A model generated the notes under the pieces. That model worked only from the letters and a program-made list of their open reading frames with translations. It did no database searches and was not told the DNA's origin. A stretch of DNA of 64,000 bases. It comes from Candidatus Methylomirabilia bacterium (GTDB taxonomy: Bacteria > Methylomirabilota > Methylomirabilia > Rokubacteriales > CSP1-6). This document shows positions 23,815-37,573 of the stretch, one piece after another. The stretch covers positions 28,445 to 92,444 of the forward strand of contig JBGPTW010000002.1 in the NCBI GenBank assembly GCA_041490825.1, in the 5' to 3' direction. The translations under genes and the position numbers were made by a program. Position 1 is the stretch's first letter. Every line of letters begins with the position of its first letter.

Positions 23815-26800
23815 CCCGGTCCCGACCACCACCGGACACACCACTTCCTCGCCTCCTCCAGCGCGAGCATCGCGGGCGGAAACAGCAGGAGGAGCTGCCA
23901 CTCCCGAAACGATGGCGGCACCAGACCGAAGACGCTGGGAAACGGCGGAACGAACATCAGCCCGAGCAGGATTCCCACTTCGGCGGCGATCCCGACGAGC
24001 ACCAGCCGGTTGGACGTGACACCGATCCGGAACAGAGAGTCGCGGTCGGTGCGACACGCGAAGACGTTGCCGATCTGGGCCGCCACGATACCCGCGAGCG
24101 TCATCGTGGTGGCGCGGCGATACAGCTCGCCGTCAGCGGCCATCGGGAGTCCCGGGCGCCAGCCCGCCAGCCAGTAGACCCAGAAGAACGCGAGCAGGGA
24201 CAACGCGGCTTCCGCCACGCCGAGGAAGGCGTAGGCGCGGAGTAGCCGCGCCGGCCCCAGCAGCCGCTCGTCTCGGGCGCGAGGCGAGCGGTCCATCACG
24301 CCGGGCTCCGGCTCTTCAGCGCCGAGCGCCAGCGCCGGAAGCAGATCGGTGCCGAGATCCACCGCGAGAATCTGCATCACGGTCAGCGGCAGCGGGATTC
24401 CGAGAAGAACGAACGCGAGAAACGGAACCAGCTCGGGCACGTTCGACGCGAAGATGTAGGTGACGAACTTGCCCATGTTGTCCCAGGTCGCGCGTCCCTG
24501 CCGGATGGCGGCCACGATCGACGCGAAGTTGTCGTCGGTGATCACCATCTCCGCGGCTTCCTTCGCCACGTCGCTGCCCCGCCGGCCCATCGCGACACCG
24601 ATGTCAGCCGCCTTGAGCGCGGGCGCGTCGTTGACGCCGTCTCCGGTCACGGCCACAACCTCGCGGAGCGCCTCGAGCGTCGAGACGATCGAGAGCTTGT
24701 GGGCCGGCGACACCCGGGCGAAGAGGACGTTCGGCTGCGCGATGAGATCGGCAAGCGCCGGGGGCGGCAGCCGATCCAGCTCCTCGCCGGTCACGACCTT
24801 GTCGACCGGCAGCCCGAGCTGGCGCGCGATCGCCTGCGCGGTGAGGCCGTAGTCTCCCGTCATCATGACGACGCGGACTCCGGCACGGCGGCAGAGCGCG
24901 ACGGCGTCCTTCACCTCCGGTCGAGGCGGATCCGAGAGCGCCACGAGGCCGAGGAATGTCAGTTCGCGCTCGACCGCCGCAGCCGGCCCTCCGATGAGCC
25001 TTTTCTCGACCGGACGCACGGCGACCGCCAGGATACGGAGCCCGTCGACCGCGAGCCGATCGTGGGCGCGGAGGATCTCGCTCCGGAGCTCGTCGGTGAG
25101 AGGGCGGGTCGCGGTGCCCCAGCGGATTCGGTCGCAGAGCGCGAGCGTTTCCCTGGGCGCGCCCTTCACGAATGCGACGGCGCTGCCGTCGATGGCGCGG
25201 ACGAGCGTCATTCGCTTCCGGAACGAGTCGAAGGGGTACGGCGCGAGCAGCGAGTGGGCGTTCCGCAGGTGTTCCGCTGCGATCCCCGCCTCGGCGGCGA
25301 GCGCGACGAGAGCCATCTCGGTCGGATCCCCGCGGTCAGCCGTCGCCTGGGACGCGAGCACCGCCACCTCGAGGAGCTCCCGCAGGTCGCCCGCCGGCTC
25401 CGGAAGGCTGTCGTCGACCGGGACCGTCTGTCCTGATGCCCACACGAAGCAGGCCCTCATGCGGTTCTGCGTGAGCGTGCCGGTCTTGTCGGTGCAGATG
25501 ACGGTCGTAGCGCCGAGCGCCTCGATGGCCGAGAGCCGCTTCACCAGGCAGCGCTCCCGAGCGAGGCGCTTCACGCCGAACGCGAGCGCCAGTGTGAGCG
25601 TGGGCAGGAGTCCTTCCGGGACATTGGCGACGATGACGCCGAGCGCGAAGACGAATCCTTGTGTCACTGTCAAGAGCCGCATCGACACCCCGAGGACGAA
25701 GAAACCGACGCCCAGTGAGACGGCCAATCCCGTCACGATCCGGGTCACGCGCACCATCTCGCGCTGGAGCGGACTCGGCTCTTCCGGCACCGACTGCGTG
25801 AGATGCGCGATGGTGCCGATCTCGGTCGCCATGCCCGTCGCCATGACGGCGAAGCTCGCGCTGCCAGCGACCACACCGGTGCCGGCGAACACGAGCTCGT
25901 GACGCTCCTGCCGGGGCACGCTCTCGCGCGCGTTCCCGACTGCGGGGAGCTTGAAGACGGGATGCGATTCTCCCGTCAAGGCGCTCTGATCCACCCTGAG
26001 CCCGGTCGCCGTCAGAAGCTGTCCGTCCGCCGGGATCTGATCTCCCTCGTCCAGCCGGGCCACGTCGCCGGGCACGATGTCCGTCGTCGCTGTCTTCGTC
26101 TCGACGCCATCGCGCAGCACGGTGATCTCGTGCGGCAGAAGCTCCTGGAGAGCCTCGATGGCTCTCTCGGCGCGGTACTCCTGAAAGAAGCTGAACACGC
26201 CGTTGACGACGATCACCGCGAATACCGCCCAGCCGAGCTCCGGCAGGTCGGCGAGTAACGCGAGGCCGCCCGCGACCCACAGGAGCACCGCGAAGAAGCT
26301 CAGAAACTGCGAGAGACACCGAACCAGCAGTGATCGCCGCGCGATCCGCTCCAGCCGGTTCGGGCCGCACCGACGAAGTCGGTCACGAGCCTCGGTCGTC
26401 GTGAGGCCCGCCGGGCTCGAGTGAAGCAGCGCGAGGAGCTCTTCCGTGCCGAGCACGGATTCTCCCGCACCTTCGTCGGCCGCGGCGAGGATGCGAACAA
26501 GCTCCTCGCGGGTGGTGGCCGAGAGAGTCCGCGTGATGATCGCAGCATCTCGTACGCAGGCCTTGAGACGCGCGACCAGGCGCAGAACGCGGCTGCTGGC
26601 GTCGATGGACGCGCTCACGACGAGGACGATCTCGACCGGCTCGTGGGCTTTATCCAGCGCCGAGGCATGCATCACGCGGGCCCACCGAAGCGTGACGCTC
26701 GTTGCCGCCGGGTCGAGCACGTGAATCAGCCCGACCCGCGGCGCAAGCGGCACATACGTGTGCTTCGCGAGCGGATCAAGACCGAACGCCACGACGACGT

Positions 26801-26879
26801 CCGATACGGACGTGACCTCGGACCCGAAGCGACCCGGATCGCCGGCAAGAAACGGGGAGATCGCCAGCGCGCGGACCAT
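23811..26879 (-). CDS. P2-type cation-transporting ATPase (paralog c) with about 130-150 aa N-terminal extension of unknown function
   Basis: GLTTTEARDRLRRCGPNRL, TGESHPV, DKTGTLTQN, VPEGLLPTL, TGDGVNDAPALKAADIGVAMG. First plausible ATG at 26879; alternative ATG near 26670. Confidence 0.85.
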   Translation of the reverse strand: MVRALAISPFLAGDPGRFGSEVTSVSDVVVAFGLDPLAKHTYVPLAPRVGLIHVLDPAATSVTLRWARVMHASALDKAHEPVEIVLVVSASIDASSRVLRLVARLKACVRDAAIITRTLSATTREELVRILAAADEGAGESVLGTEELLALLHSSPAGLTTTEARDRLRRCGPNRLERIARRSLLVRCLSQFLSFFAVLLWVAGGLALLADLPELGWAVFAVIVVNGVFSFFQEYRAERAIEALQELLPHEITVLRDGVETKTATTDIVPGDVARLDEGDQIPADGQLLTATGLRVDQSALTGESHPVFKLPAVGNARESVPRQERHELVFAGTGVVAGSASFAVMATGMATEIGTIAHLTQSVPEEPSPLQREMVRVTRIVTGLAVSLGVGFFVLGVSMRLLTVTQGFVFALGVIVANVPEGLLPTLTLALAFGVKRLARERCLVKRLSAIEALGATTVICTDKTGTLTQNRMRACFVWASGQTVPVDDSLPEPAGDLRELLEVAVLASQATADRGDPTEMALVALAAEAGIAAEHLRNAHSLLAPYPFDSFRKRMTLVRAIDGSAVAFVKGAPRETLALCDRIRWGTATRPLTDELRSEILRAHDRLAVDGLRILAVAVRPVEKRLIGGPAAAVERELTFLGLVALSDPPRPEVKDAVALCRRAGVRVVMMTGDYGLTAQAIARQLGLPVDKVVTGEELDRLPPPALADLIAQPNVLFARVSPAHKLSIVSTLEALREVVAVTGDGVNDAPALKAADIGVAMGRRGSDVAKEAAEMVITDDNFASIVAAIRQGRATWDNMGKFVTYIFASNVPELVPFLAFVLLGIPLPLTVMQILAVDLGTDLLPALALGAEEPEPGVMDRSPRARDERLLGPARLLRAYAFLGVAEAALSLLAFFWVYWLAGWRPGLPMAADGELYRRATTMTLAGIVAAQIGNVFACRTDRDSLFRIGVTSNRLVLVGIAAEVGILLGLMFVPPFPSVFGLVPPSFREWQLLLLFPPAMLALEEARKWCVRWWSGPG

Positions 26880-27215
26880 CCCGGTGCTGGGGTGCAAATG
26901 TTCTGCCCCGAGCGACGGACCGGTGATCTCCCCGCCGTGTGCATATACGCCTTGACGCTGGCGGATGAGCCGATTGCGCGCCGTGGGGCACTGGCTCCCC
27001 ACTGGGGCGGGCCAAAACACGGCGGATGCTCGGGCAGCAAAGGCGAATCCACGTGTTATACCCCGTGGCAGTCCAGTGAGCCGGGTCCGTGTATGGCATC
27101 CGCGATGCACTTCGTCAGTCGGAAGCGTGGGTTCACTCGCGCCGATCGTCACGGCAGGGCGGCAACGTGAGCCGAATGAACCACCTCGCTGAATGGGGCT
27201 TGCCGGAGGATTCGT

Positions 27216-27908
27216 ATGGTGCTCCGATCCGTGGCGCGCAGCGACGGGATGTTCGCCAAGAAGCGACGTCGCATGGTGGAGTCGCAGATCGCCGCGCGCA
27301 GCGTGCGCGACCCTGCCGTCCTCACCGCGATGGGAAAGGTCGCGCGCGAAGAGTTCGTGCCTGATCGCCTCGCGGTCGAGGCGTACGAGGACGGGCCGCT
27401 TCCGATCGGCGACGGCCAGACGATCTCCCAGCCGTACATCGTGGCCGTGATGACGGAGGCGCTGCGTCTCCAGCCGGGCGACCGCGTCCTCGAAATCGGG
27501 ACGGGCTCGGGCTACGCGGCCGCCGTGCTGGCGGAGATCGCGCTGGAGGTCTACTCGATCGAGCGCATCGCCTCCCTCGCAGACGCCTCTCGCCGTCGCC
27601 TCGCCGATCTCGGATATACCAACGTGCAGATCCTTCACGGCGACGGCACGCTCGGCTGGCCCGAGCAGGCGCCGTACGACGCGATCGTCGTCACGGCGGG
27701 CGGGCCCGACGTGCCGAAGGCGCTGCTCGAGCAGCTCACGATCGGTGGGCGGCTCGTCATCCCAGTCGGCTCGTTGCCGCGCTTCCAGCAGCTCCTGCGT
27801 CTCGTGCGCACCGGCGATGAGACGTACGAGCGCGAGGACCTTGGCGAGGTCGCGTTCGTCCCGCTCATCGGTCGGGAGGGCTGGCCCGACAAGGAGCCCG
27901 CGCGATGA
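27216..27908 (+). CDS. pcm: Protein-L-isoaspartate O-methyltransferase
   Basis: GDGQTISQPYIVAVMTEAL...VLEIGTGSGYAAAVLA...YDAIVVTAG: PCMT SAM-binding motifs; 4-nt overlap with next gene. Confidence 0.9.
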   Translation: MVLRSVARSDGMFAKKRRRMVESQIAARSVRDPAVLTAMGKVAREEFVPDRLAVEAYEDGPLPIGDGQTISQPYIVAVMTEALRLQPGDRVLEIGTGSGYAAAVLAEIALEVYSIERIASLADASRRRLADLGYTNVQILHGDGTLGWPEQAPYDAIVVTAGGPDVPKALLEQLTIGGRLVIPVGSLPRFQQLLRLVRTGDETYEREDLGEVAFVPLIGREGWPDKEPAR

Positions 27909-29113
27909 CGCTGATCGTCGAGGCGCTGCGCCAGCCACCGGTCGCCGAGCGGCGCGTGGAGCTGGTCGAGCGCAAGGGCCTCGGGCATCCCGACACGATC
28001 TGTGACGCGCTCGTGGAAGCGATCGCCGTCGCGCTCAACCGCATGTACCGCGAGCGAGCCGGTGGGATCCTGCATTACAACGTCGACAAGGCGCTGCTCG
28101 TCGCCGGCCAGTGCGCGAAGCGGTTCGGCTGGGGCGAGCTGACACGGCCGATGGAGCTGATCGTCGGCGATCGGGCCACGTTCGAGGTCGACGGGCTCAA
28201 GCTACCGGTCGAGGAGACGATGCGAGAGGCCGTCGACGGCTGGCTCGCCAGGCATCTGCCGCGCGTACGTCCCGGTCGCGATCTACAACTCCGGAGTGTC
28301 CTGGCGCCAGGATCCGCGGAGCTCCGCGGCATCTTCGGCGGCCTCGACCGCGCCGTCGCCTCGAACGACACGTCAGCCGGGTCCGGGTATGCGCCGCTCA
28401 GCCCCGCCGAGCAGACCGTCCTCGCGGTCGAGACCTTCCTGAACGGCGTCGACTTCAAGACGCGCTTCCCTGACACCGGGGAGGACGTGAAGGTGTTCGG
28501 CGTGCGCGAGGACGATCGCATGGCGGTGACTGTCGCGATGCCGCTCGTCTGCTTCGCCGTGCCCTCGGAGGCGTCCTACTTCGCGCGCAAGGAGGAGATC
28601 CTCGGAGCGCTCGCGACGCGCTTCCGTGACGCGCCGCTGGCCCTCGACTGGCGACTGAACAATCTCGACGCGCCAGGCCGCGGCGCGGACGGCGCGTATC
28701 TCACCGTCACGGGTACGTCGGCCGAAGACGCCGATTCCGGGCAGGTCGGCCGCGGCAATCGCGCGAACGGGGTGATCGCGATCGCGCGCCCGGTGAGCGG
28801 CGAGGCCACCGCGGGTAAGAATGCGGTCGCGCATGCAGGCAAGGTTTACAACCTCTTCAGCCACCACGTCGCCGGCGTCGTGCACGCGCGATGTCCCGAG
28901 CTCCGTGAAGTCTACGTGCATCTGATGGCGCGCATCGGCGAGCCCATCGATCGCCCGTGGACGTCGGTACAAGTCATCCTCCCCGACGGCATGGCGCTGG
29001 CGGACGTCGAGCCCGCCATTCGCGAGGTCGTGGAGGCCGAGATCGCACGGCTGCCCGCGTTTCGCGAAGCGCTTTGCACGGGAGCGTACGCCGCCCCGGA
29101 TCTCCGACCGTAG
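27905..29113 (+). CDS. Archaeal-type S-adenosylmethionine synthetase (methionine adenosyltransferase, PF01941 type)
   Basis: ERKGLGHPDTICDALVEAIAVALNRMY and overall about 400 aa layout match archaeal MAT, not bacterial MetK. Confidence 0.85.
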   Translation: MTLIVEALRQPPVAERRVELVERKGLGHPDTICDALVEAIAVALNRMYRERAGGILHYNVDKALLVAGQCAKRFGWGELTRPMELIVGDRATFEVDGLKLPVEETMREAVDGWLARHLPRVRPGRDLQLRSVLAPGSAELRGIFGGLDRAVASNDTSAGSGYAPLSPAEQTVLAVETFLNGVDFKTRFPDTGEDVKVFGVREDDRMAVTVAMPLVCFAVPSEASYFARKEEILGALATRFRDAPLALDWRLNNLDAPGRGADGAYLTVTGTSAEDADSGQVGRGNRANGVIAIARPVSGEATAGKNAVAHAGKVYNLFSHHVAGVVHARCPELREVYVHLMARIGEPIDRPWTSVQVILPDGMALADVEPAIREVVEAEIARLPAFREALCTGAYAAPDLRP

Positions 29114-29252
29114 GCCCGGGGCGCTCAACCTCACGGGGCGCCGATGTCCCAGGTGGTGAGTCGGCTCGCCCCGCGTGGGCCAGAAGTATCGAGAGTTTCA
29201 GCGCGCTCGCTTGGCAAAGCTGATGCACGACCATCAGAGCGAGTCTTGCATC

Positions 29253-29588
29253 ATGGTGAAAACGGCTCCGTGCTCGGTCTGTGTCGCGAAAGAGTTTCGA
29301 CGGAGGCTTCGCACGGCCCGCCGGCGCCTCCTCGATGTCGATGGAACGACGAACCCCGGCCGGCGCAGGGCGACGCAGGTGAAGGATCGCCCGACGTGGG
29401 CGGCCGGTATGGCGCGGCTCTCGCGGCTCAACGGCCGCGAGCGCCGTGAGCTCAGCGAGATCGCGGCAGCGGAAGCGCGCCTCGACACCGGGATGTTCGG
29501 GCTGTGCGAAGCCTGTCGCCAGCCCATCGCCTTGGCGCGCCTGCGCGCATCGCCGACGGCGCGACGATGCCGCCGTTGCGAGGCCTGA
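29253..29588 (+). CDS. DksA/TraR-family C4 zinc-finger protein
   Basis: C-terminal ...EIAAAEARLDTGMFGLCEACRQPIALARLRASPTARRCRRCE: CxxC-17-CxxC DksA/TraR finger; start chosen at internal Met27. Confidence 0.7.
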   Translation: MVKTAPCSVCVAKEFRRRLRTARRRLLDVDGTTNPGRRRATQVKDRPTWAAGMARLSRLNGRERRELSEIAAAEARLDTGMFGLCEACRQPIALARLRASPTARRCRRCEA

Positions 29589-29594
29589 CTGATC

Positions 29595-30023
29595 GTGGGA
29601 CAGTACGCGTTCCTCGACGCAATCGCGGTGGCGGACTGCGCGCTGGAGATCGAAGGCCGAAGTCTCGATGACCTGTTCGAGACGGCCGCGCGCGCGCTGG
29701 CGGAGGTGATGGTCGATCCCGCCACGATGACCGCCACGGTCGCGCGGAATCTGAGTCTGACGGCTCCGTCGATCGATCTCCTCTTCTACGACTGGCTGTC
29801 GGAGCTGATCTTCCTCAAGGATCGCGAGGAGCTCGTCTTCACCGACGCCGTCGTCCAGGTCCGGGAGGCCGGCGACTACCAGCTGACCGCGCGTGTGACC
29901 GGGGGCCCGATCGACCGGGAGCGCACGGGCCTGAGGGCCGACGTCAAGGCCGTGACCTTCCACCAGTTCGCGATCGAGCCGACCACGAGGGGCTGGCGCG
30001 CGCGCGTCGTCCTCGACATCTGA
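29595..30023 (+). CDS. Archease (RtcB ligase cofactor)
   Basis: MGQYAFLDAIAVADCALEIEGRSLDDLF...ADVKAVTFHQFAIEPTTRGWRARVVLDI: archease N-term and conserved C-terminal KAVTxH...VVLDI. Confidence 0.85.
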   Translation: MGQYAFLDAIAVADCALEIEGRSLDDLFETAARALAEVMVDPATMTATVARNLSLTAPSIDLLFYDWLSELIFLKDREELVFTDAVVQVREAGDYQLTARVTGGPIDRERTGLRADVKAVTFHQFAIEPTTRGWRARVVLDI

Positions 30024-30032
30024 GACGGATCG

Positions 30033-31508
30033 ATGACGACGCTGGCTGTCGAGTCCCGTTCGATGAAAACCGTGCCGGTCGGCGACTGCATCTGGGAGAT
30101 CCCGCAAAGCGAGAAGCCCGGGATGCAGGTGCCCGCGCGGATCTACGCCTCGAGGGCGCTCCTCGAGCAGATGGATCAGGGCGTGTTCGAGCAGGTGACC
30201 AACGTCGCCTGCTTGCCCGGCATCGTTCGCGCCGCGCTCTGCATGCCCGACGGTCACTGGGGCTACGGCTTCCCGATCGGCGGCGTGGCGGCGTTCCGGG
30301 AGGACACGGGCGTGATTTCTCCCGGGGGAATCGGCTTCGACATCAACTGCGGGATGCGGTTGATCGCCACCACGCTCACCGAGACGGAGATCCGGCCGCG
30401 ACTGCGGGAACTGGTCGACGCGTTCTTTGCGGCCGTTCCGTCGGGCGTGGGCGCCCAAGGATCCGTCCGGCTGTCCGAAGACGAATTCCGGGACGTCATG
30501 GTGCACGGCGCCGGCTGGTGCGTCGAGCATGGATACGGCTGGCCGGACGACCTTGCCACCACCGAGGGCGCGGGCTGCCTCCCCGGCGCCGGACCCGATC
30601 GAGTGAGCGATCGCGCGATCCGGCGCGGCCTGAACCAGCTCGGCACGCTCGGATCCGGCAACCACTATCTCGAGATCCAGGTCGTCCCGGCTGACGGGAT
30701 CCACGACCCGCACGTCGCGAGCGTGTTCGGCGTCACCGGACCGGGACAGGTGCTGGTGATGCTCCACTGCGGATCCCGGGGGTTCGGCCACCAGGTCGGA
30801 ACCGACTATCTCCGGAAGTTCGACCAGGCCATGCGCGCGTACGGCATCACGGTCAGGGACCGCGAGCTGGCGTGCGCGCCATTCCGCTCGCCGGAAGGGC
30901 AGGCGTACTTCGGCGCGATGAACGCGGCGGCGAACGTGGCATTCGCCAACCGACAGGTGATCACGCACCGCATCCGCGAGGTGATGGCGCGGGTCTTCGG
31001 CCGCAGCGCTCGCGAGCTCGGACTCTCGGTGGTGTACGACGTCTGCCACAACACGGCGAAGCTCGAGCGCCACGTCGTCGACGGTGAGGCGCTCCAGCTC
31101 GTCGTGCACAGAAAGGGCGCCACGCGGTCGTTCGGCCCCGGCGCGCCCGATGTCCCGCCGGCGTACCGCGACGTCGGGCAGCCGGTGATCATCGGCGGGT
31201 CGATGGAGACCGGCTCGGCGCTGCTGGTGGGGACGGCGCACGCCATGAGAGAGACGTTCGGCTCCACGGCACACGGGGCCGGACGGACGATGTCGCGGGC
31301 TCAGGCCAGGCGCAAGGTCCGGGGCGAGACGCTCATCGCCGAGATGGCGGCGCGCGGCATCGTCGTCCGGGCGGCGTCGAAATCCGGCGTCGCCGAGGAG
31401 GCGGGCTTCGCCTACAAGAGCCTCGCCGACGTCGTCGACGTCGTCCATCGCCTCGACGTCTCGCGCCGGGTCGTGTCGCTCACACCGATCGGTAACGTGA
31501 AGGGCTGA
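30033..31508 (+). CDS. rtcB: RNA-splicing ligase RtcB
   Basis: MPDGHWGYGFPIGGVAAF, GGIGFDINCGMRL, NHYLEIQVV, HCGSRGFGHQV: canonical RtcB metal/GTP-binding motifs. Confidence 0.95.
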   Translation: MTTLAVESRSMKTVPVGDCIWEIPQSEKPGMQVPARIYASRALLEQMDQGVFEQVTNVACLPGIVRAALCMPDGHWGYGFPIGGVAAFREDTGVISPGGIGFDINCGMRLIATTLTETEIRPRLRELVDAFFAAVPSGVGAQGSVRLSEDEFRDVMVHGAGWCVEHGYGWPDDLATTEGAGCLPGAGPDRVSDRAIRRGLNQLGTLGSGNHYLEIQVVPADGIHDPHVASVFGVTGPGQVLVMLHCGSRGFGHQVGTDYLRKFDQAMRAYGITVRDRELACAPFRSPEGQAYFGAMNAAANVAFANRQVITHRIREVMARVFGRSARELGLSVVYDVCHNTAKLERHVVDGEALQLVVHRKGATRSFGPGAPDVPPAYRDVGQPVIIGGSMETGSALLVGTAHAMRETFGSTAHGAGRTMSRAQARRKVRGETLIAEMAARGIVVRAASKSGVAEEAGFAYKSLADVVDVVHRLDVSRRVVSLTPIGNVKG

Positions 31509-31525
31509 TCGGGGCAAGGAGGGCT

Positions 31526-31741
31526 GTGGCCATGAGCGTCTGCGCGATCTGCGGAGGACCCATCGCCGGGAAGGCCGGACTGTGTGGGGGGCATGCACTC
31601 GGCGCCGATGCGCGGTGGGCCATGACGAACCGGGTCATGTGCGATCTGCTCCACCGAGGGAAGCTGCCGGTCCGGATCGGGACGGCCGATCTGGACGAAG
31701 AGTCGTACGAGTCCGTGCCCTGCGAGATCACGGTCGTCTGA
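31526..31741 (+). CDS. Small Cys-rich (zinc-ribbon-like) protein downstream of rtcB
   Basis: MAMSVCAICGGPIAGKAGLCGGHALG...: CxxC...CGGH; 18 nt after rtcB stop. Confidence 0.4.
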   Translation: MAMSVCAICGGPIAGKAGLCGGHALGADARWAMTNRVMCDLLHRGKLPVRIGTADLDEESYESVPCEITVV

Positions 31742-31751
31742 AACCGGGACG

Positions 31752-32237
31752 ATGGGGAACACGACGATGACGGTCAAAGAGGTGATGACGCGGCATCCGA
31801 TCACGATCGATCCGGATGCTCCGCTCGGCACGGTGACGGCAGTGATGATGGAGCGGGGAGTGCGCCATCTCCCCGTCGTCGACAGTCAGGGCCGACTCAT
31901 GGGAATGATCAGCGACCGCGATGCCCGCAGCGCTGTCGTGGCTCCCGCGATGGCCGAGTACCTGTCCGCCGCTGGCCGTCGGCGTCTTCGGAGCGTGAGC
32001 GAGACCCTCGAGAATCTTCGAGTGAAGGACGTGATGACCTGGGATGCGGTCACGATCGGCCCGGACGCGCCGGTGGCGCAGGCGGCCGCAATCATGTTCG
32101 AGGGCAGGTTCGGAAGCTTGCCCGTCGTCGAGCGCGACGTGCTGGTCGGCATCGTCACCGAGCGCGACGTCCTCAAGGCGCTCGCCGCGACGCTCCCCGC
32201 CGTGCGCGGTCTCGATCCAGACACGTTCCTTTGGTGA
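31752..32237 (+). CDS. CBS-pair domain protein
   Basis: Two CBS motifs: VMTRHPITIDPDAPLGTVTAVMMERGVRHLPVVD / VMTWDAVTIGPDAPVAQAAAIMFEGRFGSLPVVE. Confidence 0.85.
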   Translation: MGNTTMTVKEVMTRHPITIDPDAPLGTVTAVMMERGVRHLPVVDSQGRLMGMISDRDARSAVVAPAMAEYLSAAGRRRLRSVSETLENLRVKDVMTWDAVTIGPDAPVAQAAAIMFEGRFGSLPVVERDVLVGIVTERDVLKALAATLPAVRGLDPDTFLW

Positions 32238-32257
32238 ACCCGCAGGAGGGCACGCGA

Positions 32258-32818
32258 ATGAGACATCCGAAGCGATCCATCACGCGCGAGATGAGAACAC
32301 GCCGGCCGCTTCATCCCGGCCGCGAGCGCGATGAGCTCGAGGCGTTGACCTGGCCTGCGTCGGTGGTGGTTCGCGATCGGATGAACCGGTCGGTGGTCTC
32401 GATCCACGCCGACGCGCTCGCCAGAGGGGCCTCCGAGATGATGCGGACGCGAAGGATCCGCCACCTGCCCGTGGTCGATCACGGCGGCCGCCTGGTCGGG
32501 ATCGTGACCGATCGCGACCTGCGTCAGGTGATCTTCGACCCCGCGATCCAGCAGCGGGTCGGCAGCCTGAGCGAGGCGCTCAAGACCGTGACGGTGGCAG
32601 ACATCATGACCCGTGGCGTGATCACGGTGCGTCCTGGCACGGGCATCCGCGACGCCGCGCGTCTCATGCGCGAGCAGCGGATCGGCGCGCTCCCGGTCGT
32701 CGAAGGTGACAAGGTCGTCGGAATTCTCACCGAGGCCGACGTGCTGAAGACGTTCCAGGAAGTCATCGACGAGGCGAGCCTCGCAAAGCCCTATCGCTGG
32801 GCGCTGGCGTATCGATGA
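32258..32818 (+). CDS. CBS-pair domain protein
   Basis: IRHLPVVDHGGRLVGIVTDRDL... and IMTRGVITVRPGTGIRDAARLMREQRIGALPVVEGDKVVGILTEADV. Confidence 0.85.
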   Translation: MRHPKRSITREMRTRRPLHPGRERDELEALTWPASVVVRDRMNRSVVSIHADALARGASEMMRTRRIRHLPVVDHGGRLVGIVTDRDLRQVIFDPAIQQRVGSLSEALKTVTVADIMTRGVITVRPGTGIRDAARLMREQRIGALPVVEGDKVVGILTEADVLKTFQEVIDEASLAKPYRWALAYR

Positions 32819-33414
32819 GCCGGAGCCAGACGACGAAGCCACGAACGTCGCCTCGGGCACGCCAGCCGCTGGCGGTATGGTTCGAGCCAGCTCCGGTGCG
32901 GCAGTGGATGCGGCGGCCAGTCGTCACGGTCGAGGCCGATGCGCTCGTCCCGAACGCGGTCGCGATGATGAAGGCACACCAGGTTCGGCATCTGCCGGTG
33001 CTCGACGGCGGTCGGCTCGTCGGCATCGTGACCGACCGTGACCTGAGGCAGCTCGTGTTCGACCCGGCCATCCGGGCCCGGCTCGATCAGACGTCCTATC
33101 TTCTCAGCGCCCTTTCGGTGCGCGAGGTGATGACGTGGGGCGTCGTCACCGTGAGACCCGACACCGATATGCGCGAGGCGGTGCGGGTGATGCGCGAGCA
33201 GAAGCTCGGAGCGCTGCCCGTGGTGAGCGGCGGCAAGCTGGTGGGCATCCTGACCGAGCGTGACGCTCTGAAAGCTCTCGAAGCGCTGCTTCGCACGAAA
33301 GTCAGTCGTGTGCAGCCGTTGCCGGCGAGCCAGATGAGCGCGGAAGCGTACGATCACGGGTTCCTCGTCCCGGCTCGCGACGGATCATGGAGCAACGAGG
33401 GCCCCGGCAATTGA
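32815..33414 (+). CDS. CBS-pair domain protein
   Basis: VRHLPVLDGGRLVGIVTDRDLRQLVF and VMTWGVVTVRPDTDMREAVRVMREQKLGALPVVSGGKLVGILTERD; 4-nt overlap with previous CBS gene. Confidence 0.85.
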   Translation: MSRSQTTKPRTSPRARQPLAVWFEPAPVRQWMRRPVVTVEADALVPNAVAMMKAHQVRHLPVLDGGRLVGIVTDRDLRQLVFDPAIRARLDQTSYLLSALSVREVMTWGVVTVRPDTDMREAVRVMREQKLGALPVVSGGKLVGILTERDALKALEALLRTKVSRVQPLPASQMSAEAYDHGFLVPARDGSWSNEGPGN

Positions 33415-33431
33415 CCAGGCAGGAGGATCCG

Positions 33432-33635
33432 ATGACTGAACGAAACGGGCCGCCTCGACAGAGTCGATCACCGAAAGCCGGACGTCCGCCCGAAGAAGGC
33501 GTGGCACCCCCGAGAGTTCGGCGCCGTCAGAAGACGGCGCATACGGCGTTCCGGAAGGACACCATGATCTCCCAGGCGTCCCAAGGACCGCGCGTCATGT
33601 GGGGCGTGACGAAGCCGAAGGTCAAGAAGGGATAG
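33432..33635 (+). CDS. Possible 67-aa highly basic small protein
   Basis: AGGAGGA SD 5 nt upstream of ATG; MTERNGPPRQSRSPKAGRPPEEGVAPPRVRRRQKTAHTAFRKDTMISQASQGPRVMWGVTKPKVKKG; no domain recognised. Confidence 0.3.
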   Translation: MTERNGPPRQSRSPKAGRPPEEGVAPPRVRRRQKTAHTAFRKDTMISQASQGPRVMWGVTKPKVKKG

Positions 33636-36399
33636 CCTGGTCGAGGCGACGGGCGATCACGTCGCGCACGTGATCCCGGAGCCTCACCATCTCCCTCCAG
33701 CCGTCGTTCCCGGGAACGAGCGGGCCGCCGATCGTCACCCGGATCGCGCCCCGGCGCGGCAGCCAGGTGTCCGCGGGCAGGACGTCGCGCGTCCCGCGGA
33801 TCGCGACCGGGATCACCGCGCAGTGCGTGTCGACGGCGGCCTTGAACGCGCCGAGCTTGAACGGCAGAAGCCGCGGCGTTCGCAGGAACGTGCCCTCCGG
33901 AAAGAAGAAGAGCGAGCCACCGCGTCGCAGCAGCGCGCTCACCCGCTCGGCGTCGGCCACGCTTCGCGAGAGGTCGACGCGATCGACGGTGACGTGGCCC
34001 ATTCGTCTGATCATGGTGCCCACGATCGGCGTGGCCAGGAGCTCCTTCTTCGCGACGAACCGGAAGTCGGCCGGGATCGCCGCGAGCAGCGCGACGGCGT
34101 CGAGATAGCTCGAATGGTTGGCCGCATAGACCACTGCGCCCCCGCGCGGGATATTCTCCAGGCCTTGGACGTCGAGCCGGCAGCCGATCAGTCTGAGCAC
34201 GAGCCGACACCACAGCTTCACGGCCCGGCCCACCGCGCGACCGCCGGGCAACAGGGCGACGGCAGCGTAGAGGGGCGGCACCGTCGTGATCAACACGATG
34301 CCGGCCCGAGCCGCGAATGCCAGCCGGCCGGCGCTGCGAACGGTTTCGCGAACGCGTGCGCCCAGGTTTTCGAGCGCTAGCCGGAGCCGCTGCGTCCGGA
34401 TGGATCGACGGCGTGCCAGCCTACCCTCTACGTAGGCGTCGCGGGTCGCCGATCGCCGGATCTTGCCGCTGGACGTCTTCAGCACCGAGCCGGGCCGCGC
34501 GATGACGACCGTGTCGGGCGGAATCCCGACGGTTGTGACGACCCGATCGACGACCGACGCGCGAAGGCGCTCTCGGGCGTCGGGCCTCGTCTGCCGGCTT
34601 TCGGCCACGACGACGAGCCGCTCGGTTCCGATCGCGGGATCCGAGATCCCGAAGGCCGCCACGCACCCCTTCCGGATGCCGGGGACGTCGCCCACGATCT
34701 CCTCGATCTCTTGAGGATGAATGTTCCGGCCGCCCTTGATGATCACGTCCTTCTGGCGCCCGGTCACGTACAGCTCCCCGTCGGCCGCGTACCCCAGATC
34801 TCCGGAGTCCATCCAGCCGTTTCGCTGAACCGCGCGCGTGGCCTCCGGATTGCGGAAGTACCCGTGCGTCACCGATGGCCCGCGGAACAGGACATGGCCC
34901 TCGACGCGCTCACCCACCGTGTGGCCCGCGCCGGCCACGATGCGGACTTCGTGATCGGGGAGCGGACGGCCGCACGAGACGACCTGCAACGCGTTCGGAT
35001 CATCGGCGCGTGCCGGATCCGCCGTGCGGGTACGCTCGAAGCCCTGTCGCGCGATCCGGTCGACGCGCGGGCCGCGCCCGGGCGGTGTCATCGTCAGACC
35101 GACCGAGGACTCGGCGAGGCCGTACACGGGACACATCGCCGCGAGCGTGAATCCGTACCGCGCGAAGCGGCGCGTGAAGCGCTCGATCGTCTCCTCGCTG
35201 ACGGGCTCGGAGCCGTTGAGCGCGAGACGCCAGGCGCTGAGATCCAGGCCCTCGAGCTCGTCGTCGGTGATGCGCTTGACGCACAGGTCGAACGCGAAGT
35301 TCGGCGCGGGCGACAGCGTGCCGCGATGCGTGTGCAGCGCCCAGAGCCAGCGGGCGGGTCGGGCGAGGAAGGCCAGCGGCGACATGATGACGGTGGGCAC
35401 GCCGTGGTAGAGGGCCCCGAGCCACGCGCCGATCAGTCCCATGTCGTGATAGAGCGGCAACCAGCTCACGCACACGTCGTCCGGGCGCAGCTCGATCGCC
35501 TGCCCGAGCGCGCGGATGTTGGCGAGGATGTTCGCGTGCGTGAGCACGACGCCTTTCGGCTCTCCCGTGCTTCCCGACGTGTACTGGATGAGCGCGGGTG
35601 CGTCGGGAACAAGCCGAGGTGACGGTACCCAGCGCCCGCCGCCGGTCAGCTGATCCACGGCGATCACTTCCCGGAGCGAGCGGACCCGGCTCCGGAGCAG
35701 GCCCGCGATGCGCTCGGCCTCGCCAAAGGTCACGAGGCACCGGGTTGCCGCGTTGCTCAGGATTCCGGTCTGGCGCGCCGCGTATTCTTCGAGCCGGTCC
35801 GCGCGAAATGGTGGATAGATGGGAACCGGAATTCCACCGGCGACCAGGATTCCGAAAAACACCGAGAAGAACGCCTCCTCGGTCCTGAGCATGATGGCCA
35901 CGGACTCGCCGTCGTCGACGCCGCGCTCCCGCAAGGCACCGCCGATCCGCTCGGCCTCGCTCCAGAGCCTCGCGTAGCTGATCGGGCGCTCGAGCCCGGT
36001 CTCCGTTCTGAGGACGATGTGAGTTCGTTCGGGATCGGCCTCGGCGTGCCAGCGGAGAACCTCGGTGAGCGTCCGGGCCGAGGCGGGGGGAGCGGCGCCG
36101 CCTGGCAGCACCGGAACGACGGGAAGCGTCGCTTCCACGATACCGGGCTTGCTCGCGAGAACGGCGGTGACGAGGTCGCGAACCGTGTCGGCCTCGACCA
36201 TGACGTCGTCGCCGACGTGAACCCCGAACGCCTTCTCCAGACGAAGGAGCAGCTCCACCCGCTCGAGGCTGCCGATCGCCAGATCGCGGTCGAGCGAGTC
36301 CTCCAGGCTGACGGGACTCTCGGGCAGAGCGGTTCTGAGCTCCGCCACGAGCCCCGTGACGATCGCGAGGACTTCTCGCTCGACCGCCTGCGCGTCCAT
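33622..36399 (-). CDS. Tri-domain acyl carrier domain - fatty acyl-AMP ligase - lysophospholipid acyltransferase (Aas-like acyl-ACP synthetase/LPLAT fusion)
   Basis: N-terminal carrier domain with phosphopantetheine site (DLAIGSLERVELL); AMP-binding YTSGSTGEPKGV and A8/A10 motifs; C-terminal PlsC motifs NHSSYLDAVALL and FFPEGT. Start at internal ATG 36399, as the upstream 243 aa of the ORF is Arg-rich junk. Confidence 0.85.
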   Translation of the reverse strand: MDAQAVEREVLAIVTGLVAELRTALPESPVSLEDSLDRDLAIGSLERVELLLRLEKAFGVHVGDDVMVEADTVRDLVTAVLASKPGIVEATLPVVPVLPGGAAPPASARTLTEVLRWHAEADPERTHIVLRTETGLERPISYARLWSEAERIGGALRERGVDDGESVAIMLRTEEAFFSVFFGILVAGGIPVPIYPPFRADRLEEYAARQTGILSNAATRCLVTFGEAERIAGLLRSRVRSLREVIAVDQLTGGGRWVPSPRLVPDAPALIQYTSGSTGEPKGVVLTHANILANIRALGQAIELRPDDVCVSWLPLYHDMGLIGAWLGALYHGVPTVIMSPLAFLARPARWLWALHTHRGTLSPAPNFAFDLCVKRITDDELEGLDLSAWRLALNGSEPVSEETIERFTRRFARYGFTLAAMCPVYGLAESSVGLTMTPPGRGPRVDRIARQGFERTRTADPARADDPNALQVVSCGRPLPDHEVRIVAGAGHTVGERVEGHVLFRGPSVTHGYFRNPEATRAVQRNGWMDSGDLGYAADGELYVTGRQKDVIIKGGRNIHPQEIEEIVGDVPGIRKGCVAAFGISDPAIGTERLVVVAESRQTRPDARERLRASVVDRVVTTVGIPPDTVVIARPGSVLKTSSGKIRRSATRDAYVEGRLARRRSIRTQRLRLALENLGARVRETVRSAGRLAFAARAGIVLITTVPPLYAAVALLPGGRAVGRAVKLWCRLVLRLIGCRLDVQGLENIPRGGAVVYAANHSSYLDAVALLAAIPADFRFVAKKELLATPIVGTMIRRMGHVTVDRVDLSRSVADAERVSALLRRGGSLFFFPEGTFLRTPRLLPFKLGAFKAAVDTHCAVIPVAIRGTRDVLPADTWLPRRGAIRVTIGGPLVPGNDGWREMVRLRDHVRDVIARRLDQAIPS

Positions 36400-36878: not shown

Positions 36879-37113
36879 GGGAACACCTCCTTGGGTGTCT
36901 GGTAATTCTTCCGAGAAGAAGCAAGATGAGGGCCGACACGCCGACACGTAACTGTGCGAATCCGCGATCGTTCGGCCCGGCAAATCCGCGGAGGACTGTG
37001 GAGTGCCCGCCCCACGTGAGGCGCGCCGTCAACGACGAGTCTCGCGAACTCGTTGAATTCTCAGACTCGCAGTTCGGCATCCCAGATGCACGAGCGATCG
37101 GTGCACGTTGAGA

Positions 37114-37561: not shown

Positions 37562-37573
37562 GAGGAAGCTGCG

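What the first reader, a model, noticed from the sequence alone, without database searches (positions are those of the whole stretch)
27216..33414. Combined protein-repair / RNA-repair operon: pcm + archaeal-type SAM synthetase + TraR + archease + RtcB + Zn-ribbon + three CBS proteins
All genes are co-directional with 4-nt overlaps or gaps under 30 nt. A protein-isoaspartyl repair methyltransferase is paired with its own archaeal-type MAT to make SAM locally, which is unusual in Bacteria (most use MetK). These are followed by the archease-RtcB RNA ligase pair. The archease-RtcB pair is normally not operonic with pcm. This suggests a dedicated macromolecule-repair module for dormant cells.
Basis: partly seen in the sequence, partly recalled or inferred. 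Interest (0 to 1): 0.6.

Follow-up and report, generated by a model that had tools for sequence, protein, structure and literature searches.

The report
Sigma-54-controlled protein and RNA repair cluster
A soil bacterium of the Methylomirabilota (Rokubacteria) group places a protein-repair enzyme, coupled to its own archaeal-style SAM-making enzyme, next to an RNA-repair ligase; the two are neighbouring units of a large stress-survival gene island that appears to be switched on through sigma-54 promoters.

Summary
The nine genes are real and co-directional: pcm, archaeal-type MAT, a DksA/TraR zinc-finger protein, archease, RtcB, a 71-aa Cys-rich ORF and three CBS-pair proteins. A tenth small gene (33432-33635) was missed.

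The run is probably not one conserved operon. One junction is 61 nt or more, not under 30 nt. It holds a predicted sigma-54-type promoter (29212-29227) with an upstream palindrome (29134-29151). A matching pair lies upstream of pcm (27094-27109; 26984-27001). The motif TGGCA-N6-WTGCW occurs 10 times in the window against 0.13 expected. It is always upstream of a gene and is enriched in related Methylomirabilota contigs. The palindrome TGGGGC-N6-GCCCCA sits 40-99 nt upstream at helically phased distances.

Two sub-modules are conserved. pcm overlaps MAT by 4 nt in 8 of 16 related places. Archease-RtcB are paired in 26 of 26.

The same gene set recurs around them in relatives in shuffled order: Usp, HPF, CBS, Hsp20/GroEL, PolX-LigA, RtcA and class II RNR. 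This resembles the mycobacterial DosR repertoire. The MAT sits in a Methylomirabilota clade nested among archaeal sequences.

I could not test whether a canonical MetK coexists. Verdict: a new variant of known kinds, of moderate interest.

The parts
26984..27001 (.). Near-palindromic upstream activator site TGGGGCACTGGCTCCCCA. It is shared by the divergent pcm and P-type ATPase promoters.
   Evidence: 1 mismatch to TGGGGC-N6-GCCCCA. It lies 92 nt upstream of the pcm promoter and 75 nt upstream of the minus-strand site at 26893-26908.
27094..27109 (+). Predicted sigma-54-type -24/-12 promoter TGGCATCCGCGATGCA for pcm-MAT.
   Evidence: Exact match to TGGCA-N6-WTGCW: 10 in the window against 0.13 expected. 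It ends 106 nt upstream of the pcm ATG. The combined promoter-plus-palindrome pattern gives 6 sites against 0.23 expected.
27216..27908 (+). pcm, protein-L-isoaspartate O-methyltransferase (230 aa).
   Evidence: PF01135 E=7.6e-67. NF001453 scores 263 bits against a cut-off of 188. GGAGGA lies 6 nt before the ATG. The same 230-aa gene call appears in L147.
27905..29113 (+). Archaeal-type methionine adenosyltransferase (SAM synthetase, 402 aa). It overlaps pcm by ATGA.
   Evidence: PF01941 E=5.4e-128. Solved archaeal MATs match at E=3e-78 with conserved motifs. It falls in a Methylomirabilota clade among archaeal sequences.
29134..29151 (.). Palindrome-like upstream activator site CGGGGCGCCGATGTCCCA in the MAT to DksA-like gap.
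   Evidence: 2 mismatches to the palindrome. It lies 60 nt upstream of the internal promoter, within the commonest distance classes.
29212..29227 (+). Predicted internal sigma-54-type promoter TGGCAAAGCTGATGCA.
   Evidence: Exact match. It lies inside the 5' end of the longest DksA-like ORF and 25 nt before ATG 29253.
29175..29588 (+). DksA/TraR-family C4 zinc-finger protein. The longest ORF gives 137 aa. The likely true start is ATG 29253, giving 111 aa.
   Evidence: PF01258 E=5e-10. It is a divergent paralogue of the island's DksA-like protein at 37151-37561 and lacks the coiled-coil tip segment.
29595..30023 (+). Archease (142 aa).
   Evidence: PF01951 E=1.4e-35. Archease sits directly upstream of RtcB in 26 of 26 close relatives that have enough upstream sequence.
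30033..31508 (+). RtcB RNA ligase (491 aa) of the archaeal/eukaryal-like type.
   Evidence: PF01139 E=9e-166. P. horikoshii RtcB matches at E=2e-166. The motifs carrying the residues I recall as metal-binding and as the guanylylated His are conserved.
31526..31741 (+). 71-aa Cys-rich ORF; lineage-specific, function unknown.
   Evidence: AGGAGG ribosome-binding site and in-frame GC3 of 0.83. No family hit. No homologue in the related loci.
31752..32237 (+). CBS-pair protein 1 (161 aa).
   Evidence: PF00571, two domains, E=3.8e-34. PDB hits include MJ0100, AcuB and Rv2626c.
32258..32818 (+). CBS-pair protein 2. The likely start is ATG 32258, preceded by AGGAGG; the longest ORF starts at 32231.
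   Evidence: PF00571 E=4e-33; start-codon analysis.
32815..33414 (+). CBS-pair protein 3 (199 aa). It overlaps CBS2 by ATGA.
   Evidence: PF00571 E=3.6e-34; PDB hits.
33432..33635 (+).
   Evidence: 63% identical to the 65-aa ORF that directly follows MAT in L148. A 65-aa ORF sits in the same position in the P0059 and P0030 contigs. AGGAGGA precedes the ATG. No Pfam family.

Best explanation
The region holds two adjacent, co-directional transcription units that belong to one sigma-54-type regulon. That regulon spans at least 50 kb of this window, a stress and maintenance island of a Methylomirabilota (Rokubacteria) bacterium.

Unit 1 is pcm-MAT. Unit 2 is the DksA-like gene, archease, RtcB, the 71-aa ORF, three CBS-pair genes and the small basic protein.

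Each unit is preceded by a -24/-12 promoter (TGGCA-N6-WTGCW). Each promoter has, 60-92 nt upstream, a TGGGGC-N6-GCCCCA palindrome.

Inferred steps:
- An NtrC-type enhancer-binding response regulator, like the one encoded in a relative's island, binds the palindromes on some stress or energy signal. It switches on both units together with the Usp, DUF2267, DksA-like-GroEL and P-type ATPase units.
- Read-through from unit 1 into unit 2 is possible, because no terminator was detected.
- Within unit 1, the ATGA overlap couples MAT translation to pcm. SAM is then made from Met and ATP alongside the enzyme that consumes it to convert isoaspartyl residues back toward aspartyl.
- In unit 2, archease-activated RtcB seals RNA ends bearing 3'-phosphate or 2',3'-cyclic phosphate to 5'-OH ends.
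- The CBS-pair proteins probably sense adenosyl ligands.

Shown here: gene identities, junctions, motif statistics and positions, and conservation of the sub-modules and of the promoters in relatives.

Inferred: sigma-54 dependence, the activator, the inducing signal, SAM supply to Pcm, and every enzymatic activity.
For: Gene identities.

Promoter motif:
- 10 exact sites against 0.13 expected, with 0 of 100 shuffles reaching that count.
- The GATGCA variant gives 9 against 0.62.
- All sites point at a start codon 25-110 nt downstream, most of them preceded by a Shine-Dalgarno sequence.
- Enriched in Methylomirabilota-like loci: 19 hits in 205 kb against 0.8 expected, and 36 in 267 kb against 0.6.
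- Not clearly enriched in distant RtcB loci (7 against 3.0) and not in other MAT loci (5 against 5.2).

Palindrome:
- 16 sites against 4.3 expected.
- 44 of 47 palindromes found near 56 promoters lie 40-99 nt upstream, against 4 in the downstream control.
- Distances cluster at about 50, 62, 72, 83 and 93 nt.
- The combined pattern gives 6 in the window against 0.23, and includes both 27094 and 29212.

Relatives carry the same promoter, with the palindrome in every case but L003, directly upstream of:
- pcm-MAT (L001, L005);
- PolX-LigA-pcm-MAT (L148);
- GroEL-FNT-pcm-MAT (L011);
- kinase-PCMT-OsmC-RtcB-GroEL-MAT (L150);
- radical-SAM-MAT (L003, L006).

The promoter motif also lies upstream of Hsp20-archease-RtcB and of archease-RtcB in relatives; a palindrome accompanies it at L073, L075 and L082.

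Activator: an NtrC-type protein (receiver + Sigma54_activat + HTH_8) sits in a relative's island, and GAFTGA motifs occur in L095 and L109.

pcm/MAT overlap is conserved. MAT-pcm is also adjacent in a Gammaproteobacteria MAG.

No terminator, riboswitch or stable hairpin was found in the region.

Island content.
Against: - No rpoN and no enhancer-binding protein is encoded in the 64-kb window.
- The internal promoter lies inside the longest DksA-like ORF. GC3 does not settle the true start (0.73 against 0.80), and ATG 29253 has only a weak ribosome-binding site.
- The palindrome at 29134 has 2 mismatches.
- Several promoter sites in the window lack a good palindrome within 38-111 nt.
- In relatives the same promoter type drives LigA, normally an essential gene. 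The regulon may therefore not be strictly a dormancy or stress set, and the MAT might be the only SAM synthetase.
- The order of the nine genes is not conserved, so adjacency of the two units may carry no function beyond co-regulation.
- No expression data were available.
Confidence: 0.6

Rival explanations
1. One reading: one dedicated operon transcribed from a single promoter upstream of pcm. It evolved as a fixed protein-plus-RNA repair module with its own SAM supply.
For: All genes are co-directional with small gaps, and no terminator-like site or stable hairpin was found. A second lineage (L150) also has PCMT, RtcB and MAT in one co-directional run behind one sigma-54 promoter.
Against: The order is not found in any other of about 16 MAT-anchored and 30 close RtcB-anchored places. 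In L077 and L079 the two modules are convergent. A promoter plus palindrome sits in the largest gap. The small ORF that follows MAT in relatives lies after CBS3 here, which suggests the RtcB block was inserted.
Confidence: 0.15
2. The archaeal-type MAT is simply this phylum's only, housekeeping SAM synthetase, having replaced MetK. Its position next to pcm is incidental synteny in a region that mixes housekeeping and stress genes.
For: The MAT forms a monophyletic Methylomirabilota clade, consistent with vertical inheritance, at 66-80% identity. No MetK was found in the window or in 1.9 Mb of fetched loci, though that search has little power. LigA, PRPP synthetase, GroEL and RNR also lie in these regions.
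Against: In 9 of 16 places the gene directly upstream of MAT is a SAM-consuming enzyme. That gene is pcm in 8, with a 4-nt overlap in the 7 that have gene calls or ORF bounds. In the ninth (L006/L149) it is the AmmeMemoRadiSam radical SAM enzyme with a 1-nt overlap. In L003 the same radical SAM gene lies 74 nt upstream. The pairing recurs in other phyla: Anaerolineae L025 and Gammaproteobacteria L040. The operons containing MAT sit behind predicted sigma-54 promoters, which by established knowledge are silent without an activator. From established knowledge, genera such as Novosphingobium and Pseudomonas that carry a PF01941 MAT also have MetK.
Confidence: 0.3
3. The TGGCA-N6-WTGCW and palindrome elements are not sigma-54 promoters and enhancers. 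They could be binding sites of an unrelated regulator or a repeated element.
For: No rpoN or activator is present in the window. There are no expression data.
Against: The GG/GC spacing matches the canonical -24/-12 element exactly. All sites are oriented toward a downstream gene. Enhancer-like palindromes lie at phased distances. Proteins with a sigma-54 activation domain are encoded in related islands.
Confidence: 0.1
4. The PCMT homologue is not a repair enzyme. It could be a peptide-maturation methyltransferase of the kind that forms aspartimide in RiPP pathways, with MAT feeding a biosynthetic pathway.
For: PCMT-like NCBIfam models for the FxLD and ATP-grasp maturase systems give partial hits.
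Against: Those hits are far below their cut-offs (141 against 320; 125 against 380), whereas the canonical Pcm equivalogs pass. No precursor peptide, ATP-grasp or lanthipeptide genes are nearby.
Confidence: 0.04

Closest known systems
E. coli / Salmonella rtcBA RNA-repair operon with the sigma-54 activator RtcR (PMC9650030, PMC7790460, PMC4987338)
   Same: An RtcB RNA ligase behind a sigma-54-type promoter that needs an enhancer-binding activator, induced by stress.
   Different: No CARF-domain RtcR is adjacent, and no activator is in the window at all. RtcA is 15 kb away behind a YbaK-like gene. An archease is present, and the RtcB is of the archaeal/eukaryal-like type: the E. coli-type model NF007153 scores only 135 bits against a 407 cut-off. 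The promoter type is shared with dozens of other island genes.
Mycobacterium tuberculosis DosR dormancy regulon, e.g. block Rv2623-Rv2631 (PMC5309233, PMC3390679, PMC3374827)
   Same: Overlapping repertoire: universal stress proteins, a CBS-pair protein, RtcB (Rv2631), an S30AE/HPF ribosome hibernation factor, B12-dependent RNR (Rv0570) and a phosphoribosyltransferase protein (Rv0571c). From my recollection it also includes a P-type ATPase. I also recall Rv2630 being archease-like; I did not check that here.
   Different: The DosR box GGGAC-N4-GTCCC is not enriched: 1 site against 4.8 expected. No DosR/DosS is in the window. Control appears to be through sigma-54 and an enhancer palindrome. 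pcm and a MAT are not listed among DosR genes.
Archaeal methionine adenosyltransferases with solved structures: 4L4Q, 7P83, 6S81, 4HPV (organisms recalled as Thermococcus, Methanocaldococcus, Pyrococcus and Sulfolobus)
   Same: Same family (PF01941), aligned over the full length. Conserved blocks include ERKGxGHPD, NDTSxGxGYAPLS, TGTSAExxDxGxVGRGNRxNG and AGKNxVxHxGKxYN.
   Different: Bacterial host. The best NCBIfam equivalog is below its cut-off (482 against 557). The gene is embedded in a stress island and translationally coupled to pcm. No pcm was detected beside MAT in the archaeal loci I fetched.
E. coli surE-pcm-nlpD-rpoS stationary-phase cluster (recalled from memory)
   Same: pcm is placed among genes for survival of non-growing cells.
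   Different: Different neighbours and a different sigma factor. There is no SAM synthetase partner.
AmmeMemoRadiSam system radical SAM enzyme (TIGR04337)
   Same: In relatives L003 and L006/L149, and in Anaerolineae L025, this SAM-consuming enzyme occupies the slot directly upstream of MAT that pcm occupies here.
   Different: It is not present in the window. The function of that system is unknown.

Membership tests
Protein-L-isoaspartate O-methyltransferase (Pcm) | Full-length match to PF01135 and scores above the curated equivalog cut-offs | tested here: met
   PF01135 matches residues 17-221 at E=7.6e-67. NF001453 scores 263.3 against 188; TIGR00080 scores 234.3 against 159.
Protein-L-isoaspartate O-methyltransferase (Pcm) | SAM-binding motif I (VLEIGxGxGY) | tested here: met
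   VLEIGTGSGYAAAVLAE is present in the translation.
Protein-L-isoaspartate O-methyltransferase (Pcm) | Methylation of isoaspartyl substrates | not testable with these tools
   Needs an enzyme assay.
Archaeal-type methionine adenosyltransferase (PF01941) | Full-length PF01941 match, with no MetK domains | tested here: met
   PF01941 matches residues 3-393 of 402 at E=5.4e-128 and is the only family hit.
Archaeal-type methionine adenosyltransferase (PF01941) | Score above an NCBIfam equivalog cut-off | tested here: not met
   The best model, NF003363, scores 481.8 bits against a cut-off of 557. This is a divergent bacterial branch of the family.
Archaeal-type methionine adenosyltransferase (PF01941) | Conserved sequence blocks shared with solved archaeal enzymes | tested here: met
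   Alignment to 4L4Q and 7P83. Which residues are catalytic was not checked individually.
Archaeal-type methionine adenosyltransferase (PF01941) | Branches with archaeal sequences rather than ordinary bacterial MetK | tested here: met
   In the NJ tree of 59 sequences, the Methylomirabilota clade plus one Geobacter sequence is sister to a group of Anaerolineae, Bathyarchaeota, Hadarchaeota and Methanosarcina. NJ only, with no support values.
RtcB RNA ligase | Full-length PF01139 and conserved active-site residues | tested here: met
   PF01139 E=9e-166. Aligned to P. horikoshii RtcB, these motifs are conserved: DINCG, GSGNH, HxGSRGxGHQ, xHN and HGAGR. The assignment of catalytic residues to these motifs is from memory.
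RtcB RNA ligase | Adjacent archease cofactor | tested here: met
   The archease gene ends 9 nt before rtcB. The pair is conserved in 26 of 26 close relatives.
E. coli-type Rtc system (rtcR-rtcBA) | Sigma-54 promoter upstream of rtcB | tested here: met
   A predicted -24/-12 element lies at 29212-29227, two genes upstream of rtcB. This is a prediction only.
E. coli-type Rtc system (rtcR-rtcBA) | Adjacent RtcR (CARF + sigma-54 activation domain) and adjacent rtcA | tested here: not met
   No GAFTGA or ESELFG motif occurs anywhere in the window. RtcA is at 46250-47308.
Single operon (as claimed) | Co-directional genes with short gaps and no internal terminator | tested here: met
   One gap is 61 nt or more.
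Single operon (as claimed) | No internal promoter | tested here: not met
   A predicted sigma-54 promoter with a palindrome lies between MAT and the DksA-like gene.
Single operon (as claimed) | Gene order conserved in relatives | tested here: not met
   Only pcm-MAT and archease-RtcB are conserved. The full order was seen nowhere else.
Single operon (as claimed) | Co-transcription | not testable with these tools
   Needs RNA data.
Sigma-54 regulon | GG at -24 and GC at -12 with canonical spacing, upstream of genes and in their orientation | tested here: met
   10 exact sites against 0.13 expected. All lie upstream of start codons, most with a Shine-Dalgarno sequence. Conserved in relatives.
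Sigma-54 regulon | Upstream activator sites | tested here: met
   The TGGGGC-N6-GCCCCA palindrome lies 40-99 nt upstream at about 10-nt periodic distances.
Sigma-54 regulon | Enhancer-binding protein and rpoN in the genome | tested here: inconclusive
   An NtrC-type activator is present in related islands L109 and L095. None is present in the window, and no rpoN was found in any fetched sequence. The whole genome is not available.
DosR dormancy regulon | Overlapping gene repertoire | tested here: met
   The window holds Usp (at least 6), HPF, CBS-pair proteins, P-type ATPases, NrdJ/Z class II RNR (TIGR02504 above its cut-off), a PRTase-hydrolase fusion and RtcB. These were compared with the list in PMC5309233.
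DosR dormancy regulon | DosR-box promoters and a DosR/DosS regulator | tested here: not met
   GGGAC-N4-GTCCC gives 1 site against 4.8 expected. No response regulator was found among the window ORFs I scanned. The island works like the DosR regulon but is not a member of it.
DksA (RNA polymerase secondary-channel factor) | C4 zinc finger plus the acidic coiled-coil tip (DxxDxA), with a score above the equivalog cut-off | tested here: not met
   The zinc finger is present (PF01258). TIGR02420 scores 46.9 against 115.5. The tip segment is deleted relative to E. coli DksA and to the island's other DksA-like proteins.

The most novel reading that the evidence does not exclude
Methylomirabilota carry a phylum-wide maintenance regulon, dependent on sigma-54 and an NtrC-type activator, that is a functional analogue of the mycobacterial DosR regulon. 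It covers Usp, HPF, CBS, Hsp20/GroEL, PolX-LigA, RtcA, archease-RtcB and Pcm. Within it, an SAM synthetase of archaeal origin serves as a second, stress-specific MAT. It is translationally coupled to SAM-consuming enzymes (Pcm, or the AmmeMemoRadiSam radical SAM enzyme), so that these keep working when housekeeping MetK is shut down in non-growing cells.
Probability: 0.4. Interest if true: 0.7.

Novelty: new variant of a known kind. Interest (0 to 1): 0.55.

Why it matters
Rokubacteria/Methylomirabilota are abundant, uncultured soil bacteria, and how they persist is not known.

The analysis yields a concrete, testable regulon model. It consists of a promoter motif, an enhancer palindrome with helical phasing, and a candidate NtrC-type activator. 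The model ties protein, RNA and DNA repair, chaperones, ribosome hibernation and nucleotide supply into one switch.

It also gives archaeal-type SAM synthetases in bacteria a possible role. They appear as partners of SAM-consuming enzymes, with pcm-MAT adjacency arising independently in two phyla. That is a lead for how methyl-donor supply is secured in non-growing cells.

If the MAT instead turns out to be the only SAM synthetase, the finding reduces to a MetK replacement. The regulon model would remain.

Tried and rejected
- Sigma-70 promoter and intrinsic terminator scan of 26200-33900: nothing found. This says little for a genome of 68% G+C.
- DosR box GGGAC-N4-GTCCC: 1 site against 4.8 expected, so rejected.
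- Naive k-mer and dyad enrichment in my first intergenic set: nothing above shuffles. It failed because over-long ORF calls hid the promoter sites and because the motif is gapped.
- Rfam search of the whole window at gathering threshold, and of 26700-29300 at E up to 1: no riboswitch, including no SAM riboswitch, and no other RNA family.
- Folding of the MAT to DksA-like gap and of the pcm leader: no more stable than shuffles, z = -0.26 and +0.44.
This has no power to exclude MetK elsewhere in the genome.
- Exact look-up of the window's MAT in the contig index failed. The 100%-identical P0001 led to GCA_041482695.1, whose contig is 99.6% identical to window 20441-29199 and ends just after MAT.
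- Homologues of the 71-aa ORF in about 150 loci: none.
- An rpoN signature (RpoN box) in all fetched DNA: none.
- Literature searches found no description of pcm with an archaeal-type MAT, or of stress islands in Rokubacteria.
- By-eye alignment of the regions upstream of pcm in relatives showed nothing, before the motif was known.

Full report
WHAT IS THERE. The window has 62-71% G+C. Between 27216 and 33635 it holds ten co-directional genes on the + strand.

- Pfam and NCBIfam identify a canonical protein-L-isoaspartate O-methyltransferase (27216-27908) and an archaeal-type methionine adenosyltransferase (27905-29113; PF01941, no MetK domains).
- They also identify a DksA/TraR-family C4 zinc-finger protein (29175-29588), archease (29595-30023), RtcB (30033-31508) and three stand-alone CBS-pair proteins.
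- The 71-aa Cys-rich ORF (31526-31741) has a good ribosome-binding site and coding-like GC3. It has no family and no homologue in about 150 related loci.
- A tenth gene is a 67-aa basic protein at 33432-33635. It is homologous to the small ORF that directly follows MAT in relatives.
- RtcB aligns end to end with Pyrococcus horikoshii RtcB, with the active-site motifs conserved.
- The MAT shares the conserved blocks of solved archaeal MATs.

JUNCTIONS. pcm/MAT and CBS2/CBS3 overlap by ATGA, and most other gaps are 6-20 nt. The MAT to DksA-like gap is 61 nt with the longest ORF. No terminator-like site, Rfam family or unusually stable hairpin occurs in the region.

ORGANISM AND SURROUNDINGS. The MAT's nearest named relatives are Rokubacteria/Methylomirabilota MAGs at 66-80% identity. 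A contig of GCA_041482695.1 is 99.6% identical to window 20441-29199.

The rest of the window is a dense set of stress and maintenance genes:
- at least six universal stress proteins, FtsH, a BON protein and an S30AE/HPF hibernation factor;
- three tandem P-type ATPases and further CBS and CBS-BON proteins;
- a second DksA-like gene in front of a GroEL that has no GroES;
- a formate/nitrite transporter family protein (FNT), a 2-oxoacid dehydrogenase set, and a YbaK-like gene with RtcA;
- a class II (B12) ribonucleotide reductase, DUF2267 and GYD proteins, and a PRTase-hydrolase fusion;
- PRPP synthetase and an RpoD-like sigma factor that scores below the RpoD cut-offs.

This repertoire overlaps strongly with the M. 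tuberculosis DosR regulon as listed in PMC5309233, which includes RtcB (Rv2631). The DosR box itself is not enriched.

CONSERVATION. I anchored on MAT in GTDB genomes and in metagenome contigs. I anchored on RtcB in 80 metagenome loci. I then mapped the window's proteins onto all loci.

- The nine-gene order occurs nowhere else.
- Two sub-modules are conserved. pcm lies directly upstream of MAT in 8 of 16 Methylomirabilota-like places, with a 4-nt overlap in the 7 that have gene calls or ORF bounds. Archease lies directly upstream of RtcB in 26 of 26 close relatives with enough sequence.
- In other lineages the slot upstream of MAT is taken by the AmmeMemoRadiSam radical SAM enzyme (TIGR04337; L003, L006/L149, and Anaerolineae L025). 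It is also taken by PolX, or by GroEL.
- Other co-directional arrangements include PolX-LigA-pcm-MAT-small ORF, GroEL-FNT-pcm-MAT (L011) and kinase-PCMT-OsmC-RtcB-GroEL-MAT (L150).
- In L077 and L079, archease-RtcB converges on MAT-pcm.
- A Gammaproteobacteria MAG whose MAT is only 39% identical has Hsp20-MAT-pcm with a 1-nt overlap.

The picture is an island whose content is conserved and whose order is fluid. Within it, MAT usually sits directly downstream of an enzyme that consumes SAM. In the window, the block from the DksA-like gene to CBS3 looks inserted between MAT and the small ORF that normally follows it.

MAT PHYLOGENY. The scan returned PF01941 MATs from many bacterial lineages: Methylomirabilota, Anaerolineae, Geobacter, Alpha- and Gammaproteobacteria, Bacteroidota, Planctomycetota and Myxococcota.

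In an NJ tree, the window's protein lies in a monophyletic Methylomirabilota clade. That clade, with one Geobacter sequence, is sister to a group of Anaerolineae, Bathyarchaeota, Hadarchaeota and Methanosarcina. A second bacterial group is separate.

The MAT is therefore genuinely archaeal-type, though such enzymes are not rare in bacteria. In Novosphingobium the gene lies near two FtsH genes, a Spy-like protein and MgtC.

REGULATION, THE MAIN NEW RESULT. I tested for a sigma-54 promoter because E. coli rtcBA is sigma-54/RtcR-dependent (PMC9650030, PMC7790460).

- The motif was over-represented. The refined pattern TGGCA-N6-WTGCW occurs 10 times against 0.13 expected.
- Every site points at a start codon 25-110 nt downstream, most of them preceded by a Shine-Dalgarno sequence. 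Several of these start codons correct over-long ORF calls.
- One site (27094-27109) ends 106 nt upstream of pcm.
- Another (29212-27, i.e. 29212-29227) lies in the 5' end of the longest DksA-like ORF. The gene probably starts at ATG 29253, which makes the MAT to DksA-like gap 139 nt.
- The motif is enriched about 25- to 60-fold in Methylomirabilota-like loci. It is not clearly enriched in distant RtcB loci (7 against 3.0) and not in other MAT loci.

A palindrome emerged from the upstream regions, TGGGGC-N6-GCCCCA.
- It occurs 16 times in the window against 4.3 expected.
- 44 of 47 occurrences near 56 promoters lie 40-99 nt upstream, against 4 in a downstream control.
- The distances cluster at roughly 50, 62, 72, 83 and 93 nt, which indicates helical phasing.
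- Promoter-plus-palindrome pairs number 6 in the window against 0.23 expected. They include pcm, whose palindrome at 26984-27001 is shared with a divergent ATPase promoter. They also include the internal site, whose palindrome at 29134-29151 lies inside the 61-nt gap.

In relatives, the same promoters precede the operons that contain pcm and/or MAT (palindrome present in all but L003) and those that contain (Hsp20-)archease-RtcB. An NtrC-type activator (receiver, Sigma54_activat, HTH_8) is encoded in one related island, and a GAFTGA protein in another. None is in the window.

INTERPRETATION. The finding is best read as two adjacent units of one sigma-54-type regulon. Read-through between them is possible.

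It does not hold as a fixed operon.

The 'own SAM supply' idea is supported by the conserved translational coupling of MAT to SAM-consuming enzymes. It is also supported by the independent MAT-pcm pairing in a second phylum.

What remains open:
- Is this MAT a second, stress-specific enzyme or the only SAM synthetase? I could not search whole genomes, and one search has no power to answer this.
- What signal induces the regulon?
- Is the regulon truly dormancy-specific? LigA under the same promoter type in relatives argues for caution.

All enzymatic functions are inferred from homology.

SCORES. The components are all known. The combination of features is new as far as my literature searches show:
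- an archaeal-type MAT coupled to pcm;
- a DosR-like repertoire under sigma-54 control;
- a defined enhancer palindrome.

I rate it a new variant of known kinds, with interest 0.55.

Noticed in passing
window 101-9605: This is a block unlike the rest of the window, and it looks like a defence or mobile region. It holds a HEPN_Swt1+DUF499 protein (101-3436), a RelA_SpoT-like fragment (3463-4194, -), a 607-aa protein with an NA37 nucleoid-associated domain (4423-6246, -), an AAA ATPase (6058-7044) and a 906-aa subtilase (6885-9605). G+C dips to 0.62 at 4-6 kb.
   Followed up: partly
window 18893-26880 (- strand): Three tandem P-type cation ATPases. The one nearest pcm has an N-terminal extension of about 130 aa of unknown nature. 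A predicted sigma-54 site (26893-26908, -) shares the palindrome at 26984-27001 with the pcm promoter.
   Followed up: partly
window 37075-39193: A second DksA-like zinc-finger gene (37151-37561) lies directly in front of a GroEL with no GroES, behind a sigma-54-like site (37075-37090) and palindrome (36997-37014). This DksA-like type is conserved across relatives, usually preceding Usp genes. It keeps part of the DksA tip (xxEDAA), unlike the copy at 29175-29588.
   Followed up: partly
window 45718-47308: A YbaK-like aminoacyl-tRNA editing-domain protein lies directly upstream of the RNA 3'-phosphate cyclase RtcA, 15 kb from RtcB. In relatives RtcA is often next to MAT, for example divergent from it in L010.
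   Followed up: no
window 56305-57729: A phosphoribosyltransferase fused to an alpha/beta (dienelactone-type) hydrolase. From memory this is the architecture of M. tuberculosis Rv0571c, a DosR-regulon gene. The same fusion occurs in the P0027 contig.
   Followed up: no
window 58894-59142 (-) and 52474-52899 (+): Two ORFs missed by my first gene-calling pass, each starting after a sigma-54-type site and a Shine-Dalgarno sequence. One is an 82-aa protein with a Cys/His-rich N-terminus (MHCICGHLEREH...). The other is a 141-aa protein with a hydrophobic segment.
   Followed up: no
window 10383, 52096, 55689, 58973, 61617 (ORF starts): The longest-ORF starts of several island genes (three Usp genes, DUF2267, PRPP synthetase) run over their own predicted sigma-54 promoters. 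The likely true starts are 10446, 52045 (-), 55746, about 58890 (-) and 61905.
   Followed up: yes
window 33622 to about 36400 (- strand): A large fusion protein with carrier-protein, AMP-binding (acyl-adenylate-forming) and PlsC-type acyltransferase domains converges on the end of the cluster. It is followed by another CBS-pair gene (36447-36983, -).
   Followed up: no
L150 1997-3313: In a relative, PCMT is fused to an N-terminal P-loop kinase domain (APS_kinase/AAA_33-like). It heads a run kinase-PCMT-OsmC-RtcB-GroEL-MAT-AMP-binding-E1-E2.
   Followed up: partly
L040 5571-13740: A Gammaproteobacteria MAG (44% G+C) has ATP synthase alpha and gamma genes, then Hsp20, archaeal-type MAT and pcm (1-nt overlap), with a CBS-pair gene nearby. 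This is an independent MAT-pcm pairing in reversed order.
   Followed up: partly
L057-L060 (Novosphingobium), about 9900-17300: The archaeal-type MAT of Novosphingobium lies beside an LTXXQ/Spy-like protein, two FtsH paralogues and MgtC, and downstream of AidB and Bax1-I genes. This is another stress-flavoured neighbourhood, in a genus that should also have MetK.
   Followed up: partly
L003 7326-7550; L077 3826-4029; L079 2350-2544: A conserved 74-aa acidic, Cys-rich small protein follows MAT in one relative and follows RtcB in two others. By eye it shows no similarity to the window's 71-aa ORF, which sits in the equivalent slot after RtcB.
   Followed up: no
L067-L078 upstream of archease: In many close relatives an Hsp20 small heat-shock gene immediately precedes archease-RtcB, behind the sigma-54 promoter. 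The window has the DksA-like gene in that position instead.
   Followed up: partly
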